Source: an uncultured archaeon (lineage in GTDB: Archaea > Thermoplasmatota > Penumbrarchaeia > JASLWR01). Taken from it: 64,000 nt of DNA. Below, in pieces: positions 50,203 to 60,534 of this stretch. Under the pieces are notes generated by a model that ran no database searches, was not told the origin of the DNA, and saw only the letters and a list, made by a program, of their open reading frames with translations. A program made the translations under genes and the position numbers. The stretch spans positions 1 through 64,000 of the forward strand of contig CAYRFL010000001.1 of NCBI GenBank assembly GCA_964423515.1, in the 5' to 3' direction. The stretch's first letter is position 1; each line of letters starts with the position of its first letter.

Positions 50203-53200
50203 ATGAACCGGGATGAATTGAGAAAACGTTTCAAGCTCGACAAATGGGCCAGGGTCTCCTTCTCCCTGGTCGCGGTGCTCGTACTTCTGCTCTCGACCAT
50301 AAGCGTCGTCTATATCGCCTATATTAACCGAATCCAGAGGGAACGGGAACAGGAGGATGAGATCACATCCAACATGGAATACAAGGTGAGCGTTGCCCAG
50401 GCGGACGTGGAAACGCAGGCGTATCTGATAGGAATGGACGCGATATTCGAGGCCACCCAGAAGGAGAACGATCAGAATCGGATAGTCCCCATATTCGAAG
50501 AGAAGTTCGACGAATACATGGAGAAATATACGAACGAGGGCGGCCACACCGAGGGAGATTATACAATCACGGTGGATGATTACGACGTGGACCTCGGCCT
50601 AGATTCCAAGATGACCGACGATTTCATACCCGTTGCCGGCCCGGGTGCTTCCGACGGGGAGAGCCTGGAGGACATCGACATGGGATCGGTGGAGGAGACG
50701 GAGGAATCTCCAACCAATTGCTATTACAGGGTCGATGCGGAGATCAAATACACGGTGGACCACAAGGATACGGGCAAGAAGCTCGACAAGAACATGACGT
50801 TCTCCAAGACCATCGAGACCCCTTATCCGATAATTCAGAACAAGTTCAGCCAGTTCCAGAGCGCCGCGGAGATGGGATCCAGCGAGCTTGGCCGAATGGT
50901 CCAGTACATTCTCGTCACCATTGCCCAGTACCGCGTTCTTCAGGGGTATGGCGCATCGGAGATCGATGGAAATAAGTTCGGGGGAGGGACCACCGATGAG
51001 ATAATTACCACCAAGGACGTGGAGCTTGCGGTGAACCTGGCCGTTCTTCTCGAGAGTGCAAAGCTATACAGGGACTTCGACAAGGGATTCCTGGCGGAAT
51101 TCGAGGTCAACAACGAGGGGACCGATACGACCATGGCATCCCTGATAAACACCTGGATAATCGAGGAACAGATCGATCCCGCGGACATAATCGCCATTTA
51201 CCAGGGAGTGGAGGACGAAGAGCTGCACCTCGAGGTGATACTGGGGCAGGCGATATATGCCCTTACCGATCAGTTCGTCATGAAATACCTCTCCTATTTC
51301 GGATTCGACAAGGTCCTGGACGTGGTATGGCAGGTGGCCCAGATAGGCAAGAATGCTCTCGAGGGCTTCTTCGAGTGGGTATCGGGCCTGTTCCCGGAGG
51401 AAGAGGACAAGCGTGCGGAGGTGGTGAAGAGCTGGGTGGGCGAACAGTTCGAAAGGGCGGAGATCGATACCGAGTTCATGTACGATACCACCGTTAACAT
51501 CGATGAGAAGACGTATCCGGTGGGTTTCCACAAGGACGGCACCTGTTCGCACAACGAGGATACTGACGGCGACCCGGAGACGGGAAAGGAACCCGTGAGC
51601 TATAAATGGGACGTTGATACCAGATACACCGTCGTGATACCCTCGGGGACGGAGACAGCCGATTTCGATCAGAAGGACATATTCCGTGAAGAGGTGGACT
51701 GGATTTGGGAGAATTTCTACGATCATTATTTCACCAAGGACAACGAGAAGAACGTGGTCAAGAGCCTGTCCGAGACGCTAAAGGACATATCCGTGGCAAT
51801 TGCCGCAAATTTCGCCCAGATAGACGGTCTCAGCGAGATATTCGACGACTACAGATACCTCCCCACGGGCGCACTCGTTCCCAGCGATAACGTCTCTCTC
51901 ATGGAGACCATACAGCTACACGTCGTCGGTTTAATGACCGAGGTCATCGACTTCTTCAAGGGCGATCAGGGGAAGGACGGCATCAAGGCGCTCATACTGG
52001 ATTTCATATCCGACCACAACGATATGCTCTACGGCCTGCGGGATGAAATAACCGCTTACTTCGACGAGTTCGTGGCCAAGGACATGAACATCGACCTGGC
52101 CACCGAGAGGCTGACGGAAAATCTCATGAGCGCCGCATACGTCAGGAACGGAGAGGGGAACATAGTGGAGGTGGACAATCCCGAGGAGATCAAGTACCCC
52201 GACGTTCCGCCGCAGCCGAACCAGGACCCGGGAATGCTTCCCCGGAACGTTCCCTACATACATCAGGTGATCGATACTCCCGGATGGTTCAACGGGGACT
52301 GGGCCTGCGGGGCCACATCGGCCATGATGGCCCTTGCCTATTACGGGATCCTGCCTGCGGAAAGATGGGACAACGACATATGCGAGGAATACACCTACAA
52401 CGGCTTCACCTTCAATCAGGTGGCCAACGATCCAAGCGGCACCCCTGCCAAGGGCGGGTACGGCTACATCTGCCAGAACAACTGGGAGAACACAAAGGCC
52501 CACATGGCGGGATATGCCCAGAAGCACGGCCTTACCTCATCGGTGGATTGGTCCCCCACTTGGGGCGAGCTGACCACTGAGATAGATGCCGGTCATCCGG
52601 TTGTACTTCTAACGAGCCTTACGGGCCCGGGGCATTATGTCCTTGCCATCGGATACAGGCCCGACACCAGGGTCGTGGTGGTGAACGATCCCTACGGCAA
52701 CAAGAACCTGGGATACGTGAACTATCACGGGGCGGCGGCCGAGTATGACTGGCCCGGTTACAATTACGGGAACTCGAACATGAACACGCTCCACTGCTTC
52801 ATCTATTTCAAGGGTACCCCCCCGGGAACCCGGGGCGGGGTCACACCGGATGAATGGCAGGTGATGCAGTGCCCCTACGAGGAGCATCCTCCCCTGGACG
52901 CAGGCAGCCTGCCCAAATACTCGGAGGAGGAGATACTCGCGAAATTCTCGGAGAAATGGAGATGCGATGTGGAGGCCTATTCCCGAAGCCTCGTTACCGC
53001 GGCCTACGAGGAAGTGAAGAACGAGGAGCTCAGGATCTTGAAGGAAGCGGTAAGCGAACTCGCCAAGACCACCGGAAATGAGATACTGGACATGATCGTG
53101 GACGGAGCGGCCACGATCGGACAGGCATCCGGGCTCGTGCCCGTGGCCTGCGCATTCGTGACCACCGTGGCGGCGGATATCATCCACTCGTCCGACATCA

Positions 53201-56052
53201 GGAACTTCAACTACTTCATGCCCCTGTCCATGGGGAAGAAGTTCAACTTCTGGAGCGGCGAGCTGAGCCTTATCGATGCCAAGAAGAAGGGGAAGGCGTA
53301 CTTTGAAGAGATTAACGTCGATATGAAACCGGACTATCTCGTCAACGGCAGCGAGTTGGAGATAGTCATTGAGGAGCCCTCGGGGGTTCACTACACCAAC
53401 CTGACCGAATTCCACGCAAGACCCTTCGAGACCACCTGGAACATAGTTGTCACCGGCTCCTTCACCCTCACGACCAAGAGCGTCAGCAAGGGTCTGATGG
53501 TGGACGGAAAGCATCGTTCCGCTGTCAAGACAGACAAGATCGAGCTGAACATATCGTCCCCCATCATCGTCTATTCGGGGTGGAACCTCGAGGGAGTGGA
53601 TTACTGGGAGACCAGCACGCTCTGGGGCGATATCGCGGAGATCATAATGAAGTTCCTCTCCATGGTCTGGGATGCCATCACCGGGGTCATTGGATGGCTT
53701 ATCGACGGGTTGATGAAGATAGTGACGGTCCTTGTGAACATCATTCACGCGATAGTGAACTTCGCATCCAAGGTGATAAAGATCATCGTGGACGTTTTCA
53801 CGTGGATCATCGAGAAGATACGGACCTTCATCCAGGAATCGCTGGACCTGGTGGCCAAGGCGATCATGGGGGTGGCCTACCTACTGGGAGACGGTTTCAA
53901 CTTCACGGCTTTCGGAATACTTTTCAATGTTACGACGAAGTTCGAGGACGGCGACATGCCGGCGGAGGGCTGGGAATGGATGACCCGGATATCCTCCCGG
54001 TTGAACGTTAAGGACTTCGGGTTGGGATTCGACCTCAACGTGGTCAGGAAGAACGGGACCGACGATTACGACATACTGGTGACGTCAGGTCTGAAGGTCG
54101 GCGATTTTATACTGGAGGTTGCAATGGACCCGTTGATGGCGGTCTGGCCGAGGTTCATCGAGGGGCACGGAATATACCTCAACGAGACCGGACAGGGATT
54201 CGCACTTGATTTTACCAGCCCGGAGATCGACACAGGCTGGTCCGTCCTCGGTTCGATCAAGTTTGCCAAAGGCTACGTCAAGAAGGTGGTGAAGATACCT
54301 GCCAGCAAGATAACCATTCCCCACGTCGGAACCGCCCAGGCGGAGCTGGGCATCAAGCTGAGCTGGCCGAAGAGCATAAGGGTGGACGGAAAGACCATCG
54401 GAGCCAAGGTGAACGAGACCTTCTACGAGGTATGGCACGGTCTTGGCGGCAGGTTCCCCATGGACGGCGATGTGATCGACCAGTACTCCAAGAAGCTGGC
54501 GGAGAGCCTGAAGGAGAACCTGGCCCCGGTCCTGGTCGATCTCGGAAGCGACGTGAAGATCGAGATATGGTTGAAGCTCGAGATAAAACCGTTCGGCGGG
54601 CGTTTCAAGGTTGCGGGCCTGAGCGGTTACACGGTCTGGAGAACCACTCTCAAGTTCGACATGAACCTGGGTAAGGATTTTGTCAAGACCATGGATTATT
54701 TCAAGGCCTATTCAAGCAAGTATCTCGAGAATCCCGGAGAGCGTCCCAAGAAGGAACCGCTGCCCGAAACGGGTATCGACGTCAAGTTCAGCACCGAGGT
54801 AAAGGTGCAGGTGAAGAAGATATTCAGCTCACCGGTACAGATCCCGCTCATAGGGGTCGATGCCAAGGGAGAGGTGGGAGCTTCCATATCCTGCAAGTAC
54901 ACGTATAGAGAGGAGGCCACGCAGGCCTGGGATGACATCAAATCGGACCTCGATGCCGATTGGGAATCCGCAAAGGCCGGGGAGGCCATGAAACGCCTGG
55001 GCGACAAGATAGGGGGCTTAGTCGGCTATCTCGGGGACAATACCGAGGTGAAGACCTGGGTCAAGCTGCATCTTTCGAAGGAGTTCGGGAGCTACGGGGA
55101 CCTGGCATCCACCATTAACGTCGCATTCACCATAAAGGGCAAGGATACCGTCGTTGACGGATACAACTGGATAAAGAGCAATATCGACAAGTATCTGCTG
55201 AAACCGGGCGAGAATATCACAGCGTCCCCGCCCCCCAACGTCAAGATACGGATATACGTGACCACCGAGCTCGGACTGAAGCACAAGGTCGCAAAGATAC
55301 CGATCCCCGCCATCGGGTGCACGGCCGACGTTACCATAGGGTTCAGATTCACCCTGAAGTTCTCCACGACTACGAACCTGTCTGAGTTCATCGACTTCAT
55401 GAACATGTCCTTCGACGAGGTGGACCGGGAGACGAACGATACTCCCCGGGATCAGGGCCTGATAGAGATCTACTCCCAGAAGATAATCGTTAAATTGAAG
55501 GAGGCCCTGGATTACGTTCTGGACAACGGACAGATATCCTTCTACGTCAGATTCGACCTGGACGTGGGTGGGCTCGACGCACTTGAGGCCGGGATCGTCC
55601 TGAAGTTCATTATGAAATGCAGTCTCAGAGGTCTTTGGGAGGTTATGAAATGGGTAATGGGAAGCGTTGGAGCCTTCGTCAACAACGTGCTCAATCCCGC
55701 AAACGCCGCCAAATCCCCCGACGTTCCCAAGGAGTATCTTGAGAAGATACATATCGAGTTCGAGGCCTTCCTCCAGGCCGGGCTGCCCGATATGATAAAG
55801 GATGTCACCGGAGGTCATGTGGGATTCAAGGCCAGGCTTTCCCTCATAATCAGGACCAATCTCCCCATGCTTGCCGCGATATTCGGCCAGGATTGGGGGA
55901 GGTTCAGCGCCAGTTTTGGAGTGGTGCTGAAACTCGATCTGACGCTGAAGTTCGGTTTGGAGGACCTCTTTGGATTCATGGATGCGGAGATGCATCCCCA
56001 CGCCTGGTTCCGCCTCTGGTTCTTCTATGCGAGAATATATGAGATAGAATAG
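50203..56052 (+). CDS. Giant (1949 aa) type-II membrane-anchored protein containing an internal Peptidase_C39-like (PF13529-type, papain-fold) cysteine peptidase domain
   Basis: N-terminal signal-anchor 'VSFSLVAVLVLLLSTISVVYIAYI'. C39-like domain near nt 52240-52720: 'VPYIHQVIDTPGWFNGDWACGATSAMMALAYYGI...DAGHPVVLLTS...GPGHYVLAIGYRPDTRVVVVNDPYG' carries a Q/C/H/D catalytic set. The rest has no recognisable domains. C-terminal region has amphipathic hydrophobic helices. Confidence 0.8.
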   Translation: MNRDELRKRFKLDKWARVSFSLVAVLVLLLSTISVVYIAYINRIQREREQEDEITSNMEYKVSVAQADVETQAYLIGMDAIFEATQKENDQNRIVPIFEEKFDEYMEKYTNEGGHTEGDYTITVDDYDVDLGLDSKMTDDFIPVAGPGASDGESLEDIDMGSVEETEESPTNCYYRVDAEIKYTVDHKDTGKKLDKNMTFSKTIETPYPIIQNKFSQFQSAAEMGSSELGRMVQYILVTIAQYRVLQGYGASEIDGNKFGGGTTDEIITTKDVELAVNLAVLLESAKLYRDFDKGFLAEFEVNNEGTDTTMASLINTWIIEEQIDPADIIAIYQGVEDEELHLEVILGQAIYALTDQFVMKYLSYFGFDKVLDVVWQVAQIGKNALEGFFEWVSGLFPEEEDKRAEVVKSWVGEQFERAEIDTEFMYDTTVNIDEKTYPVGFHKDGTCSHNEDTDGDPETGKEPVSYKWDVDTRYTVVIPSGTETADFDQKDIFREEVDWIWENFYDHYFTKDNEKNVVKSLSETLKDISVAIAANFAQIDGLSEIFDDYRYLPTGALVPSDNVSLMETIQLHVVGLMTEVIDFFKGDQGKDGIKALILDFISDHNDMLYGLRDEITAYFDEFVAKDMNIDLATERLTENLMSAAYVRNGEGNIVEVDNPEEIKYPDVPPQPNQDPGMLPRNVPYIHQVIDTPGWFNGDWACGATSAMMALAYYGILPAERWDNDICEEYTYNGFTFNQVANDPSGTPAKGGYGYICQNNWENTKAHMAGYAQKHGLTSSVDWSPTWGELTTEIDAGHPVVLLTSLTGPGHYVLAIGYRPDTRVVVVNDPYGNKNLGYVNYHGAAAEYDWPGYNYGNSNMNTLHCFIYFKGTPPGTRGGVTPDEWQVMQCPYEEHPPLDAGSLPKYSEEEILAKFSEKWRCDVEAYSRSLVTAAYEEVKNEELRILKEAVSELAKTTGNEILDMIVDGAATIGQASGLVPVACAFVTTVAADIIHSSDIRNFNYFMPLSMGKKFNFWSGELSLIDAKKKGKAYFEEINVDMKPDYLVNGSELEIVIEEPSGVHYTNLTEFHARPFETTWNIVVTGSFTLTTKSVSKGLMVDGKHRSAVKTDKIELNISSPIIVYSGWNLEGVDYWETSTLWGDIAEIIMKFLSMVWDAITGVIGWLIDGLMKIVTVLVNIIHAIVNFASKVIKIIVDVFTWIIEKIRTFIQESLDLVAKAIMGVAYLLGDGFNFTAFGILFNVTTKFEDGDMPAEGWEWMTRISSRLNVKDFGLGFDLNVVRKNGTDDYDILVTSGLKVGDFILEVAMDPLMAVWPRFIEGHGIYLNETGQGFALDFTSPEIDTGWSVLGSIKFAKGYVKKVVKIPASKITIPHVGTAQAELGIKLSWPKSIRVDGKTIGAKVNETFYEVWHGLGGRFPMDGDVIDQYSKKLAESLKENLAPVLVDLGSDVKIEIWLKLEIKPFGGRFKVAGLSGYTVWRTTLKFDMNLGKDFVKTMDYFKAYSSKYLENPGERPKKEPLPETGIDVKFSTEVKVQVKKIFSSPVQIPLIGVDAKGEVGASISCKYTYREEATQAWDDIKSDLDADWESAKAGEAMKRLGDKIGGLVGYLGDNTEVKTWVKLHLSKEFGSYGDLASTINVAFTIKGKDTVVDGYNWIKSNIDKYLLKPGENITASPPPNVKIRIYVTTELGLKHKVAKIPIPAIGCTADVTIGFRFTLKFSTTTNLSEFIDFMNMSFDEVDRETNDTPRDQGLIEIYSQKIIVKLKEALDYVLDNGQISFYVRFDLDVGGLDALEAGIVLKFIMKCSLRGLWEVMKWVMGSVGAFVNNVLNPANAAKSPDVPKEYLEKIHIEFEAFLQAGLPDMIKDVTGGHVGFKARLSLIIRTNLPMLAAIFGQDWGRFSASFGVVLKLDLTLKFGLEDLFGFMDAEMHPHAWFRLWFFYARIYEIE

Positions 56053-56162
56053 GGACCGCGGCGGGAATCATCGCCCTTGACGGACCGGGGACGACGTCCC
56101 CGGCTTGTATTTTTATTAAAAGGGTACTCTCTTGATTTCAAGGATAAAAATGATACGGCACT

Positions 56163-57473
56163 TCACTCCTTCTTGTTGAGAAGATCGTCCTTCAGCTTGT
56201 TGAAATCGTCCGGACCTATAAGTCCCTTCTCCCTCCACCCGATAAGCTTCTCCATCTTCGAGAACCTGTCGTCACCGGACATCTCGACCGTATCCGCAGG
56301 GGATTTCTCGTGCCCCGGGCCCACCGGAGACCTGAGGCCGGATGCCCCTTTTTCCGCGATGCTGTCGGATGCACCCTTGATGGGTAAGCCTCGGCTCTTC
56401 CACAGACCCTCGACATCCATCTCGATCCCATCCTTCCCGCCGCCCTTCCCACCGTCCTTCCCACCACCCTTCTTGCCGTCCTTCCCACCGCCATTAACAT
56501 CCTCCTTCTCCGTTTTATCACCGCCTCCTTGAGCCTCCCCTTCCTTAGCTTCGTCCTCGCCTCCTCCGGTTTTCCCGCTCTGATCGCCCGTTCCCGGAAT
56601 GGATACCTTCCTCGTTACCAGCTTCTTTTTACGGACCGTCTTTCGTGCCTTGCCGAGCTCCTCTTCGAATCTCAGGAACTGGTTGAAGAGATGGGCAAGG
56701 ATCTCCTTGATATTGTCCCTCTTCAATCCGTCGCTGGATTCCATTATCTCTCCCAGGAGCGGTTTGATGGCCTTGTCGCCGAACTTCTTGAGTATCTCCT
56801 TGGCCGCAGTCCTGGCCCTTTCATTGGTCTCGTCGCCTCCAAGGATGCCGATGAGAGGCTCGATGGTCTTTGTGGAGCGGAAATTTCCCAGGGCATGGAC
56901 GACCTCCTCCCGTACCTGCTCGTCCTGGTCCCTGAGCATGTTCACCAGGGGTTCTATGGACGAGGGGGCACGTAATGCGCCCAGGGCCGAAATGACGCTC
57001 TTCTGAACATTGATGTCCGGATCCTTCAATGTCTCGATGAGCGGACCCACCGCCGCGCCGTCCCCGATGTCCTTAAGGAGCGAGATGACCTGAAGCCTGA
57101 CGCTGCGATCCTTGTCGGAAAGAAGGGCTATCAGAGGACTGACTGCCCTGGTCTCATGCGAGAGCGCCTCCACTGCCGCCTGACGCACCATCTTGTCCCT
57201 GTCCTTCAGCGCCTCGATCAGCGGCTCCAGGGCCTTCTCGGTCCCGAACAGCTCCAGGGCTTCAGCAGCTGCTTTCTGGACCCTCCACTCCCGGTCGTAT
57301 CTTACCACCTCCAGAAGATGTCTCACGACACGGGGATCTCCGGTCTCACCCAGCATCTTTACGGTCCTCTCGCGTATCACGACGTTATCATCCTGAAGGA
57401 GAGAAAACAGCTCCTCCAGTTCATCTTTAGTAGATTTCCCACCGACATCGACCTTTTCCCCATCGGGCTCCAT
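56163..57473 (-). CDS. Cytoplasmic PBS-lyase/HEAT-like repeat protein with a Gly/Lys low-complexity region and a C-terminal SHOCT-like domain
   Basis: At least 7 repeats of the type 'DxDxxVRxxAxxALGxhGxxxAhxPLIxxL'. The '(GGKDGKK)n' tract is encoded by tandem 15-21-bp DNA repeats at 56440-56520. C-terminus 'RFSKMEKLIGWREKGLIGPDDFNKLKDDLL' is SHOCT-like. Confidence 0.6.
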   Translation of the reverse strand: MEPDGEKVDVGGKSTKDELEELFSLLQDDNVVIRERTVKMLGETGDPRVVRHLLEVVRYDREWRVQKAAAEALELFGTEKALEPLIEALKDRDKMVRQAAVEALSHETRAVSPLIALLSDKDRSVRLQVISLLKDIGDGAAVGPLIETLKDPDINVQKSVISALGALRAPSSIEPLVNMLRDQDEQVREEVVHALGNFRSTKTIEPLIGILGGDETNERARTAAKEILKKFGDKAIKPLLGEIMESSDGLKRDNIKEILAHLFNQFLRFEEELGKARKTVRKKKLVTRKVSIPGTGDQSGKTGGGEDEAKEGEAQGGGDKTEKEDVNGGGKDGKKGGGKDGGKGGGKDGIEMDVEGLWKSRGLPIKGASDSIAEKGASGLRSPVGPGHEKSPADTVEMSGDDRFSKMEKLIGWREKGLIGPDDFNKLKDDLLNKKE

Positions 57474-57561
57474 ATCGCTTCACACTCCTTTTCGGGGTTC
57501 CCCCCGTACGATGACCCATTTTCCAAAATCATATAATTTACTTTTCTTCAGAAATCAAAAA

Positions 57562-58731
57562 TCAATAATCCCATTCGTCCCATCTTTCACTTCCGTGATC
57601 ATCATAACGATGAGGGGTGGAGGAGCTCGGACGAAAACGAATACCCCTGCATCTCTCGCATGTCCATCTTCTGGAATCGGGATCGTAAACCTGCTCTTCC
57701 GAACATTTCGGGCACAGGGGGGACCACAGTCGTTTTCCCTTTCCAGCCGCCGACACTTCCTTTCTTCGATGGGGGGAGAAGAAAAAGTCATCCCTCGGGT
57801 CTAATGAACCACGGCCCGTTAGCCACAGCTCATCGTCCGCTTCCCCTCGTCGTTGTGTATCCTCGGGCTTACGAGAACGCGGCTTTTTCATCACTGAGTT
57901 CAGGACCAGACCGACAATGGCAATAAGGAGGAATATAAAAAATAGGACCAGGCCAGGATGCTCCTCCATGAGATATTGCACAGGATTACGGGATCCCCCT
58001 TCCTCATCGGGATCGTATTGTTCGCCGGTGAACTCTATAACGGTGACGACCGCGTCCAGATACTCCGGAGGAATGTCCCCTATGCCCCAGTCCGACCCGG
58101 TGGTCTCTGCATAATAATATTCCTTTCCATTGTGAATGACATTGGTACCGGAAAGGTCGCTTCCCGCCACCCCCACGGCCATGTGACCAGGTTCATCCAC
58201 GGTTCCCGGGATCAGAAAGAGGACCGCATCGTATTCCAGAAGTATGATAAGGGTGGCAAAGAGTATGGATGTATCCTCGCAATCACCTCCCCGGTCGGCC
58301 AGGGTTTCCAGGGGAAAGCGCGGGTACTCGTCATAACCGGTCGTTACCTTGTCCGATGTATAATCGAGGCTCTGGATGAACGAGAGGACGAAGCTCACCT
58401 CTTTCTCTCCATCGTAGCCCTTCCTCCGGCTGGCATTGTGAAATTCCCCGGCCGCCTCCACGAGAGTATCGTCCCTCGTGGTTATCATGCGTCCGTAGTT
58501 CCTTCTCTTTTCCACTGCGAAATCCTTGTATGAGTTCAGACGCTGGAGAGATATATTGAAATCCCAGCTCCACTGGATCGTGGATAGTTGAGATTCCTTG
58601 AACTCCCACTCGTAATGAAGGACTATCTCATCCTCGGCGACTGCCGTGGCCCACGGACCTGCCGACAACAGACAGAATACGATCAATCCCAATGAGAAGA
58701 GTTCCAGGGAACGGCAACTCCATCGCCCCAT
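57562..58731 (-). CDS. Secreted/membrane-anchored transglutaminase-like (papain-fold Cys-His) domain protein with TM and cytoplasmic C4 zinc ribbon
   Basis: Signal peptide. 'GGDCEDTSILFATLIILLEYDAVLFL' (Cys, C-x-x-x-x-x-F-A pattern). 'GHMAVGV' (His). 'YYYAETTGSDWGIGD' (Asp/Glu). TM 'LVLFFIFLLIAIVGLVL'. Tail 'CPKCSEEQVYDPDSRRWTCERC'. Confidence 0.55.
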   Translation of the reverse strand: MGRWSCRSLELFSLGLIVFCLLSAGPWATAVAEDEIVLHYEWEFKESQLSTIQWSWDFNISLQRLNSYKDFAVEKRRNYGRMITTRDDTLVEAAGEFHNASRRKGYDGEKEVSFVLSFIQSLDYTSDKVTTGYDEYPRFPLETLADRGGDCEDTSILFATLIILLEYDAVLFLIPGTVDEPGHMAVGVAGSDLSGTNVIHNGKEYYYAETTGSDWGIGDIPPEYLDAVVTVIEFTGEQYDPDEEGGSRNPVQYLMEEHPGLVLFFIFLLIAIVGLVLNSVMKKPRSRKPEDTQRRGEADDELWLTGRGSLDPRDDFFFSPHRRKEVSAAGKGKRLWSPLCPKCSEEQVYDPDSRRWTCERCRGIRFRPSSSTPHRYDDHGSERWDEWDY

Positions 58732-58791
58732 GGAACCTGGTGTCCGAAAGGATTCCCCGCTGAGCCAGCCAGACAAGTATTTACCCCCTTT

Positions 58792-59352
58792 CTATAGAAA
58801 ACCGGTGACCTTCTGAGTGTGATCGAAATCCACCGAGAAATCACACAGGGGAAAGGAGATGTGAACCCGACCTATGACGCGTATAAATGCGGTATCGTCC
58901 TTGAGAATATTTACGGCATCCCCGGGTGATGTTAGTTCCTTCAAATAAAAATCGACAGGTACCTTGGTACTACCCCGCGAGGGAACCTCGAAGGGTTCCA
59001 ATATCTCGAAATCGCCGATGTAGTCATTCTCACCGGGCTCGACATCGTCAAGATATACCTTCCCCTCGACCCTTGATATGGAGGCACCGAGGTAGTTATC
59101 ATTCCCTATTAGTAGCCTCAGTTTTATGTAGAGGCCGGGCCGTGGGATCGGCCCGGAATTGTCCCAGGAGACATTCTCGATCTTGACGGATTCAACGTCC
59201 ACATCCGGTTCGGCGGGCCACAAACAGTAAATCCCCGCAGCAATGACAAGGAAGATTATTATGATCACCAGAAGCGGGACCAATATCCTCCTGCCTCGAC
59301 GTGAACGGGTTCCTCCCGAGTCCGATCCGGAATCTCCTGCCATGGAGTCCAC
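58792..59352 (-). CDS. N-terminally membrane-anchored LEA_2/WHy(NDR1-HIN1)-like beta-sandwich domain protein
   Basis: TM 'ILVPLLVIIIIFLVIAAGIYCL', followed by 'VDVESVKIENVSWD...LIGNDNYLGASISRVEGKVYLDD...VPVDF' resembling LEA14/LEA_2. Moderate to low. Confidence 0.4.
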   Translation of the reverse strand: MDSMAGDSGSDSGGTRSRRGRRILVPLLVIIIIFLVIAAGIYCLWPAEPDVDVESVKIENVSWDNSGPIPRPGLYIKLRLLIGNDNYLGASISRVEGKVYLDDVEPGENDYIGDFEILEPFEVPSRGSTKVPVDFYLKELTSPGDAVNILKDDTAFIRVIGRVHISFPLCDFSVDFDHTQKVTGFL

Positions 59353-59361
59353 ACCATTGAA

Positions 59362-60534
59362 CTAAGATCGTTCTCTCCTTCGAAGGAGAGCCACGGTGAA
59401 AAGTACTAAAAGAACGGCGAGGGCCTCGATGATGCCGAAACCGGGGAGCATGCTCCTCTGGCCCCCCTTTCCCACATCCGCTCCATCCTTCGCCATCTGG
59501 AAGTCCATGACAGTGGTTATATTATTATTGGCTGCATCCGTTGCCGTTATGGTTATATTGTAATCTCCCTTCCTGAAGTCCTTCAGGCTGGCCTCGAAAT
59601 GATGCCTGTACTCACCCCCATCATTGACCGGGTTGGAATCGTCGACCTTTGCGAACTCGTATCGCTCGTCATCGTCAACAATCTCGTCATCATGGCGGTT
59701 GACGACGAAAAAGACATCCTTGAAATCGCTGTTATCGTAGAGATACAGATCTATGGCATCCCTGTCCTCATCGTAGTAGGGGGGCGAATCCTCCCTGAGG
59801 ACCGGACGCCTGTTCTCACCGGCGATGATGAAGCTACCCGCTGCCTTCTTCTCGTTCTCCCCCGAATCTATGGCGCGGATCTCATAGAGTATGGGAAGGG
59901 GGCCCGTTCCGTTGGACTGCTTCGCCACTATCCTGCCAACTATATCACGCGGCAGGAGGAATGAATAGGCGCTGTTACCCGATTTTTTCATCTGATAGGT
60001 GGTTTTGATGGGAACGATGCCGCTGCCCTGAGGAAATGTGACTGTGCACGTCTCTTCCTCGAGGCGGTAATTGTCACGAATGACCGCCCTTATCTCGACG
60101 GTGTCCGCGGTGGCGTTGAACTCCTGCATATCAAGTGTCCGATCCTCCAGGATGGGATCTGCAAAGTCGGAGAAAGGAGGGTTCAGAGAGATGATGACCA
60201 CCGCAAGCCAGGCCAGGGAGAATGCGAAAACGAAATTGAACCAGCTCTTCTTGTTCATGGAATTGAGGTCGACCTTGAACCGGGGAAGTATGAGGTAAAG
60301 TGCAGCCAGACCCAATGCTCCGGGTATGAATATGATCTGCCACGTATCCTGATAGAAGAAGAAGATGAGGAATGTTAGCGCTCCCATCACCACGGCCCAA
60401 CCGACCGATACGAAGACCCCCTTTCCGATACTCACCTGTTCTTTAAGGTATTCCGTCTCGTCGAACTCGGGAAGTTCGAAGGGAACGTCCTGTTTCATAT
60501 CCTTGTATTTTCTCTTGCTCGCCAATTTGGTCAC
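59362..60534 (-). CDS. Polytopic membrane protein (3 N-terminal TMs), extracytoplasmic domain, C-terminal PGF-CTERM-like archaeosortase sorting signal
   Basis: C-terminus 'LPGFGIIEALAVLLVLFTVALLRRRERS' is PGF plus a TM helix plus a basic tail. N-terminal TMs 'VFVSVGWAVVMGALTFLIFFFY', 'IIFIPGALGLAALYLILP' and 'WFNFVFAFSLAWLAVVIISL'. Confidence 0.55.
   Translation of the reverse strand: MTKLASKRKYKDMKQDVPFELPEFDETEYLKEQVSIGKGVFVSVGWAVVMGALTFLIFFFYQDTWQIIFIPGALGLAALYLILPRFKVDLNSMNKKSWFNFVFAFSLAWLAVVIISLNPPFSDFADPILEDRTLDMQEFNATADTVEIRAVIRDNYRLEEETCTVTFPQGSGIVPIKTTYQMKKSGNSAYSFLLPRDIVGRIVAKQSNGTGPLPILYEIRAIDSGENEKKAAGSFIIAGENRRPVLREDSPPYYDEDRDAIDLYLYDNSDFKDVFFVVNRHDDEIVDDDERYEFAKVDDSNPVNDGGEYRHHFEASLKDFRKGDYNITITATDAANNNITTVMDFQMAKDGADVGKGGQRSMLPGFGIIEALAVLLVLFTVALLRRRERS

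What the first reader, a model, noticed from the sequence alone, without database searches (positions are those of the whole stretch)
50203..60534. Convergent cluster of two papain-fold cysteine enzymes plus membrane and scaffold partners: candidate surface-protein processing or cross-linking system
A 1949-aa membrane-anchored giant with an embedded C39-like peptidase domain (50203-56052, +) converges on a tightly spaced minus-strand operon (gaps of 10, 16 and 89 bp). The operon encodes:
- a polytopic membrane protein with a PGF-CTERM-like tail;
- a LEA_2/WHy-like protein;
- a transglutaminase-like Cys-His-Asp protein with TM and cytoplasmic Zn ribbon;
- a cytoplasmic HEAT-repeat protein with a (GGKDGKK)n tract and a SHOCT domain.

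I know of no described system that joins these six parts. Two protease/transglutaminase-like enzymes sit beside an archaeosortase-type substrate tail. That suggests coordinated proteolytic maturation or covalent cross-linking of envelope proteins, with the HEAT/SHOCT protein as a cytoplasmic adaptor.
Basis: partly seen in the sequence, partly recalled or inferred. Interest (0 to 1): 0.75.

Follow-up and report, generated by a model that had tools for sequence, protein, structure and literature searches.

The report
Archaeal membrane protease operon beside giant
A small group of marine archaea carries a conserved operon of three membrane proteins and one cytoplasmic scaffold, built around a surface-facing cysteine protease; the giant surface protein next door is only sometimes its neighbour and looks like a separate enzyme-displaying protein.

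Summary
All five genes are real and the domain calls mostly hold. The giant has a strong Peptidase_C39_2 domain with conserved Gln/Cys/His/Asp motifs. HEAT is strong. SHOCT and LEA_2 fall below threshold in this copy but match in 7 of 7 orthologs. The transglutaminase fold is confirmed by a structure model, though the third catalytic residue looks like Glu224, not Asp. The PGF tail is a conserved motif that stays below curated thresholds.

The proposed unified system is only partly supported. LEA_2, the TGase-like protease and HEAT-SHOCT, usually with the polytopic protein, form a conserved operon in one marine Thermoplasmatota clade, in four different outer contexts. The polytopic protein family has only 10 clusters among 5.8 billion proteins. 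Elsewhere in archaea the protease gene lacks these partners.

The giant is adjacent in 4 lineages, not adjacent in at least 5, and missing beside 3 operons. It belongs to a family of about 200 clusters of N-anchored giants. In that family C39_2 is an inserted payload, and relatives carry GH25 or M23 cell-wall hydrolase domains instead.

The protease's only sequence-level match among solved structures is LapG. I therefore favour regulated extracellular proteolysis over cross-linking. The substrate is unknown.

The parts
50203..56052 (+). Giant N-terminally anchored envelope protein (1949 aa). It is a scaffold shared with about 200 clusters of 1250-2150-aa proteins, the annotated ones from Thermoplasmata MAGs.
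   Evidence: ORF. There are 8 full-length orthologs at 55-82% identity. More distant relatives align to aa 1-670, 900-1390 and 1780-1949 only. The N-terminal 670 aa find 202 representatives at E<=1e-3.
50254..50310 (+). Single N-terminal transmembrane anchor of the giant (aa 18-36).
   Evidence: Hydropathy scan. Residues in this stretch are invariant among orthologs.
52219..52917 (+). Inserted payload region (aa 673-905) that contains the Peptidase_C39_2 domain (Pfam aa 682-831, nt 52246-52695). Motifs: Gln688, Cys702, His811, Asp829.
   Evidence: Pfam E=1e-18. In P0009 the flanking scaffold is contiguous (685 to 686), so this region is an insertion. The motifs are conserved. The same domain, 66% identical, stands alone in L102.
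53620..53982 (+). Nearly invariant amphipathic and hydrophobic helical segment of the giant (aa 1140-1260). Function unknown.
   Evidence: Hydropathy, invariant columns, and helices in a low-confidence AF2 model.
56085..56113 (+). GC-rich hairpin plus T-run between the convergent stop codons. Candidate terminator.
   Evidence: Sequence and pattern scan. The scan found no more terminator-like sites than in shuffled sequence, so this is weak evidence.
56163..57473 (-). Cytoplasmic HEAT-repeat protein. HEAT repeats at aa 20-275 (nt 56649-57416); variable low-complexity linker with a GGKDGKK-like tract (nt 56427-56492); C-terminal SHOCT (nt 56175-56264).
   Evidence: HEAT_2 E=3e-43. No TM segment. 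SHOCT hits in 7 of 7 orthologs. Region identities are 60% / 22% / 49%.
57562..58776 (-). Membrane-tethered extracytoplasmic transglutaminase-fold cysteine protease-like protein. Signal or anchor helix; ectodomain at aa 48-262 (nt 57991-58635) with Cys166 (58279-58281), His198 (58183-58185) and Glu224 (58105-58107); TM at aa 272-296; cytoplasmic zinc ribbon at aa 353-377 (nt 57646-57720). The probable true start is Met16 (58731).
58792..59352 (-). N-terminally anchored LEA_2/WHy-type beta-sandwich ectodomain protein (TM at aa 23-43; domain at nt 58795-59217).
   Evidence: LEA_2 is sub-threshold here (E=0.0013-0.0028), but 7 of 7 orthologs match, best E=3.9e-6. It lies immediately upstream of the TGase-like gene in every operon copy.
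59362..60534 (-). Clade-specific polytopic membrane protein. Conserved cytoplasmic N-terminus (nt 60421-60534); three TM segments (60181-60420); Ig-like ectodomain (59455-60180); LPGFG + TM + basic C-terminal tail (59365-59448).
   Evidence: Hydropathy. Only 10 clusters exist in the 5.8-billion-protein database. The N-terminus is 73% identical among orthologs against 44% for the ectodomain. The PGF motif is conserved in 5 of 6 orthologs but is sub-threshold. This protein is replaced by an unrelated 1104-aa surface protein in L010.

Best explanation
Two separable things lie side by side.

(A) The minus-strand genes are a lineage-specific envelope operon of a marine Thermoplasmatota clade.
- Its invariant core is a LEA_2 ectodomain protein, a membrane-tethered extracytoplasmic transglutaminase-fold cysteine hydrolase, and a cytoplasmic HEAT-SHOCT protein. 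A clade-specific polytopic protein is usually added.
- I infer that the three membrane proteins and the HEAT-SHOCT scaffold form one transmembrane complex.
- In this model the enzyme acts outside the cell as a LapG-like, probably Ca2+-dependent, protease that clips or sheds a surface protein.
- Its activity or position would be set from the cytoplasm through its zinc-ribbon and acidic-aromatic tail and through the highly conserved cytoplasmic N-terminus of the polytopic protein, both docking on the HEAT repeats. SHOCT would oligomerise the scaffold.

(B) The giant is an independently functioning, N-terminally anchored scaffold protein that displays an inserted C39_2 cysteine-peptidase payload on the cell surface.
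- From its domain associations, the payload is most plausibly a peptidoglycan or peptide hydrolase acting on bacterial cell-wall material or bacteria.
- Its convergent adjacency to the operon is an ancestral gene order that several lineages have lost. It may be one substrate of the protease, but it is not a required part.

Shown: the genes, domains, folds, conserved residues, operon conservation and variable adjacency. Inferred: complex formation, proteolysis rather than cross-linking, cytoplasmic control, and the peptidoglycan target.
For: Operon conservation:
- The LEA-TGase-HEAT order is conserved in four outer contexts: window/L006/L089-91, L009/L011/L097, L010, and L092/93.
- The polytopic protein family has 10 clusters in total, all in this clade.

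Protease rather than transglutaminase:
- The A1 profile's only significant PDB sequence hit is LapG. It shares the acidic D-C-E-D nucleophile motif.
- LapG is a TGase-fold protease with Ca2+ bound next to the active site (PMC4359373).

Cytoplasmic coupling:
- HEAT-SHOCT has no TM segment or signal peptide.
- The polytopic protein's cytoplasmic N-terminus is its most conserved part, 73% against 44% for the ectodomain.
- Operon-type TGase tails keep a zinc ribbon and end in [DE][YW].

Giant as a separate protein:
- Adjacency is absent in at least 5 of about 10 giant lineages and at 3 of the operon loci examined.
- C39_2 is an insertion in the scaffold.
- A scaffold relative 90% identical to the L089 giant carries an added GH25 muramidase. 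P0216 carries GH25 elsewhere in the scaffold. P0025 pairs M23 with C39_2.
- Peptidase_C39_2 is catalogued as an enzymatically active endolysin domain (PMC8223927; bioRxiv 10.64898/2026.04.25.720813).
- Archaeal peptidoglycan hydrolases that kill bacteria are prominent in Thermoplasmatota (PMC12352652).
- A stand-alone secreted C39_2 protein exists in a relative (L102).
Against: - No experiment and no direct interaction evidence exist. Complex formation and cytoplasmic control are inference from topology and conservation.
- The third catalytic residue could not be checked in 3D.
- No LapG-type di-alanine site was seen near the membrane in the giant, the polytopic protein or the LEA protein.
- Giant-operon adjacency survives in the deepest giant branch (L010, 55% identity) although both outer flanks differ. 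That argues for some selection on the linkage.
- The peptidoglycan role of C39_2 is guilt by association. No cell-wall-binding domain was found in the giant.
- The giant's scaffold fold remains unknown (pLDDT 52.5).
Confidence: 0.45

Rival explanations
1. All five genes form one system in which the C39-like giant and the TGase-like enzyme jointly mature or covalently cross-link envelope proteins. The PGF-tailed polytopic protein is the substrate and HEAT-SHOCT is the cytoplasmic adaptor.
For: - The giant and the operon are adjacent in four lineages, including the deepest giant branch (L010), despite different outer flanks.
- Both enzymes keep their nucleophile Cys and His.
- The LPGFG tail is conserved in orthologs of the polytopic protein. 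It is almost the only PGF-type tail in 344 kb of clade loci.
Against: - The giant is unlinked in at least 5 lineages, and 3 operon loci lack it within 10 kb.
- In sample ERZ24794666 a giant and an operon sit on separate contigs of near-equal coverage.
- The polytopic protein is missing from the L010 operon, the very locus that keeps the giant.
- The PGF tail fails curated thresholds.
- C39_2 is a swappable insert that associates with GH25 and M23.
- The convergent orientation means the giant and the operon are transcribed separately.
Confidence: 0.15
2. A Lap-like adhesin-release switch. The giant is a surface adhesin held by its N-terminal anchor. The LapG-like protease sheds it. HEAT-SHOCT, through the protease's zinc-ribbon tail, plays the inside-out regulatory role that LapD plays in bacteria.
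For: - LapG is the best sequence-level structural relative and shares the acidic nucleophile motif.
- The protease is tethered next to a cytoplasmic tail and a cytoplasmic scaffold gene.
- A giant surface protein is encoded next door in four lineages.
Against: - There is no LapD, GGDEF/EAL or c-di-GMP component.
- There is no hit to the Peptidase_C93 model.
- No TAAG-type site was seen by eye in the juxtamembrane region of the giant.
- The protease family is widespread in Bathyarchaeia and in some methanogen lineages (Methanocella, Methanothermococcus) without any such giant or HEAT partner.
- Adjacency is facultative.
- The giant carries an enzyme domain rather than adhesin repeats.
Confidence: 0.15
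3. Chance juxtaposition of unrelated envelope genes. The minus-strand genes are merely syntenic neighbours in closely related genomes and have no shared function.
For: - About 30% of this window encodes giant envelope proteins, so such neighbours are common here.
- The clade is narrow, so shared ancestry explains some of the synteny. L006 and L089 share even their housekeeping flanks with the window.
Against: - LEA-TGase-HEAT keeps its order, orientation and short spacers in four contexts whose flanks differ completely, at 28-61% protein identity.
- The polytopic protein family occurs only in this clade; every copy whose neighbourhood was examined lies in this operon, and three further clusters share contig lengths with TGase orthologs.
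- The cytoplasmic parts are the most conserved parts.
Confidence: 0.08

Closest known systems
LapG / BTLCP (MEROPS C93) calcium-dependent periplasmic cysteine protease of the bacterial Lap adhesin system (PDB 4FGO)
   Same: - Transglutaminase-like fold.
- Extracytoplasmic location.
- Nucleophile Cys at the start of a helix, embedded in an acidic ..GGDCED.. motif that aligns with LapG's.
- Encoded beside a giant surface protein in some genomes.
   Different: - No match to the C93 Pfam model, and only E=0.1 to NCBIfam CystProtLapG.
- Archaeal, and membrane-tethered at both ends, with a cytoplasmic zinc ribbon.
- The third catalytic residue is probably Glu, not Asp.
- No LapD or c-di-GMP receptor.
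- No T1SS adhesin with a di-alanine site.
Pfam DUF553 (PF04473), the archaeal transglutaminase-like family no. 3 of Makarova, Aravind and Koonin 1999 (as summarised in PMC10318531)
   Same: Closest Pfam model. Seven of 32 family members hit it, best E=6.6e-7. It is archaeal, has the same clan-level fold, and its function is uncharacterised.
   Different: The window protein scores below the gathering threshold (15.7-17.6 bits against 20.5). Most family members do not hit the model at all. The N-terminal beta domain, the TM segment and the zinc-ribbon tail are not part of DUF553.
Peptidase_C39_2 (PF13529) domains of phage endolysins and secreted bacterial proteins
   Same: Full-length match at E=1e-18. 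The Gln/Cys/His/Asp motifs are intact. The domain co-occurs with GH25 and M23 in relatives, as C39_2 does with lysozyme and NlpC/P60 domains in endolysins.
   Different: Here the domain is embedded in the middle of a 1949-aa archaeal membrane-anchored scaffold. No cell-wall-binding domain is present. No activity has been shown. It is not a bacteriocin-processing ABC-transporter C39 domain.
PGF-CTERM / archaeosortase A sorting signal (TIGR04126, PF18204)
   Same: C-terminal LPGFG, then about 19 hydrophobic residues, then Arg/Lys. The motif is conserved in orthologs.
   Different: It scores below both curated cutoffs. Only 2 of 5 orthologs give hits. The protein also has three N-terminal TM helices, which is atypical for ArtA substrates. 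The presence of ArtA in the genome is unknown.

Membership tests
Peptidase_C39_2 (PF13529) | Match to the family HMM above the gathering score | tested here: met
   68.7 bits against a cutoff of 24; E=1e-18; profile positions 2-143 of 143.
Peptidase_C39_2 (PF13529) | Papain-type catalytic residues (oxyanion Gln, Cys, His, Asp/Asn) present and conserved | tested here: met
   Gln688, Cys702, His811 and Asp829 are conserved in 8 orthologs, in P0025 and in 6 metagenomic domains. The 3D geometry was not modelled.
Transglutaminase-like / papain-like superfamily | Fold with Cys at the N-terminus of a helix packed against a beta-sheet that carries His | tested here: met
Transglutaminase-like / papain-like superfamily | Cys-His-Asp triad | tested here: inconclusive
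   Cys166 and His198 are invariant. No invariant Asp lies downstream. Invariant Glu224 (YYYxETTG) is the candidate.
LapG / BTLCP (Peptidase_C93, NF045674) | Match to the family model at its curated threshold | tested here: not met
   NCBIfam CystProtLapG gives 11.8 bits against a cutoff of 320. No Pfam C93 hit for the window protein or for any of 32 relatives. There is only a 47-residue profile match to 4fgo (E=3e-7).
LapG / BTLCP (Peptidase_C93, NF045674) | Acidic Ca2+-binding residues flanking the nucleophile Cys | tested here: inconclusive
   The invariant GGDCED aligns with LapG's GGDCED. Which LapG residues bind Ca2+ is recalled from memory and could not be read (one search failed). The eLife paper says only that the coordinating residues are conserved near the Cys.
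Lap-type adhesin release system | LapD-type c-di-GMP receptor and a T1SS adhesin with a di-alanine cleavage site | tested here: not met
   No GGDEF, EAL or HAMP protein lies in the operon or its flanks. No AA-type juxtamembrane site was seen on inspecting the sequences.
SHOCT (PF09851) | Match to the HMM | tested here: inconclusive
   The window copy scores 13.8 bits against a cutoff of 27. All 7 orthologous C-termini hit, best E=3.8e-7. The domain is accepted at family level.
LEA_2 / WHy (PF03168) | Match to the HMM | tested here: inconclusive
   The window copy scores 18.5-19.6 bits against a cutoff of 25.4. Seven of 7 orthologs hit, best E=3.9e-6, covering profile positions 2-97 of 98.
PGF-CTERM sorting signal (TIGR04126 / PF18204) | Match to the curated models | tested here: not met
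   8.6 bits against 24.5 and 10.6 bits against 18.8. Two of 5 orthologs hit, best E=0.0024.
PGF-CTERM sorting signal (TIGR04126 / PF18204) | Archaeosortase A encoded in the same genome | not testable with these tools
   Only a 64-kb window and 20-kb loci are held.

The most novel reading that the evidence does not exclude
The operon could be a previously undescribed archaeal inside-out proteolysis module. In this reading a cytoplasmic HEAT-SHOCT scaffold gates a LapG-like surface protease through its zinc-ribbon tail. The protease releases or activates a giant, surface-anchored bacteriolytic weapon, namely the C39_2- and GH25-bearing scaffold family. This would be an archaeal analogue of the bacterial Lap switch, coupled to inter-domain antagonism.
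Probability: 0.1. Interest if true: 0.8.

Novelty: new variant of a known kind. Interest (0 to 1): 0.42.

Why it matters
Nothing is known about how wall-less or S-layer archaea of the marine Thermoplasmatota remodel or shed their very large surface proteins. Extracytoplasmic TGase-fold proteases of archaea (DUF553 and relatives) have no assigned role.

This locus gives a concrete, testable candidate for regulated surface proteolysis: a tethered LapG-like enzyme with conserved cytoplasmic handles and a dedicated HEAT-SHOCT partner.

Separately, the giant exposes a family of about 200 clusters of N-anchored scaffold proteins that carry interchangeable payloads (C39_2, GH25, LTD, PKD). Two independent GH25 insertions and an M23-C39_2 pairing point to surface-displayed peptidoglycan hydrolases. 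That bears on the recent finding that archaea kill bacteria with such enzymes.

Both points are hypotheses about uncultured organisms, and the clade that carries the operon is small.

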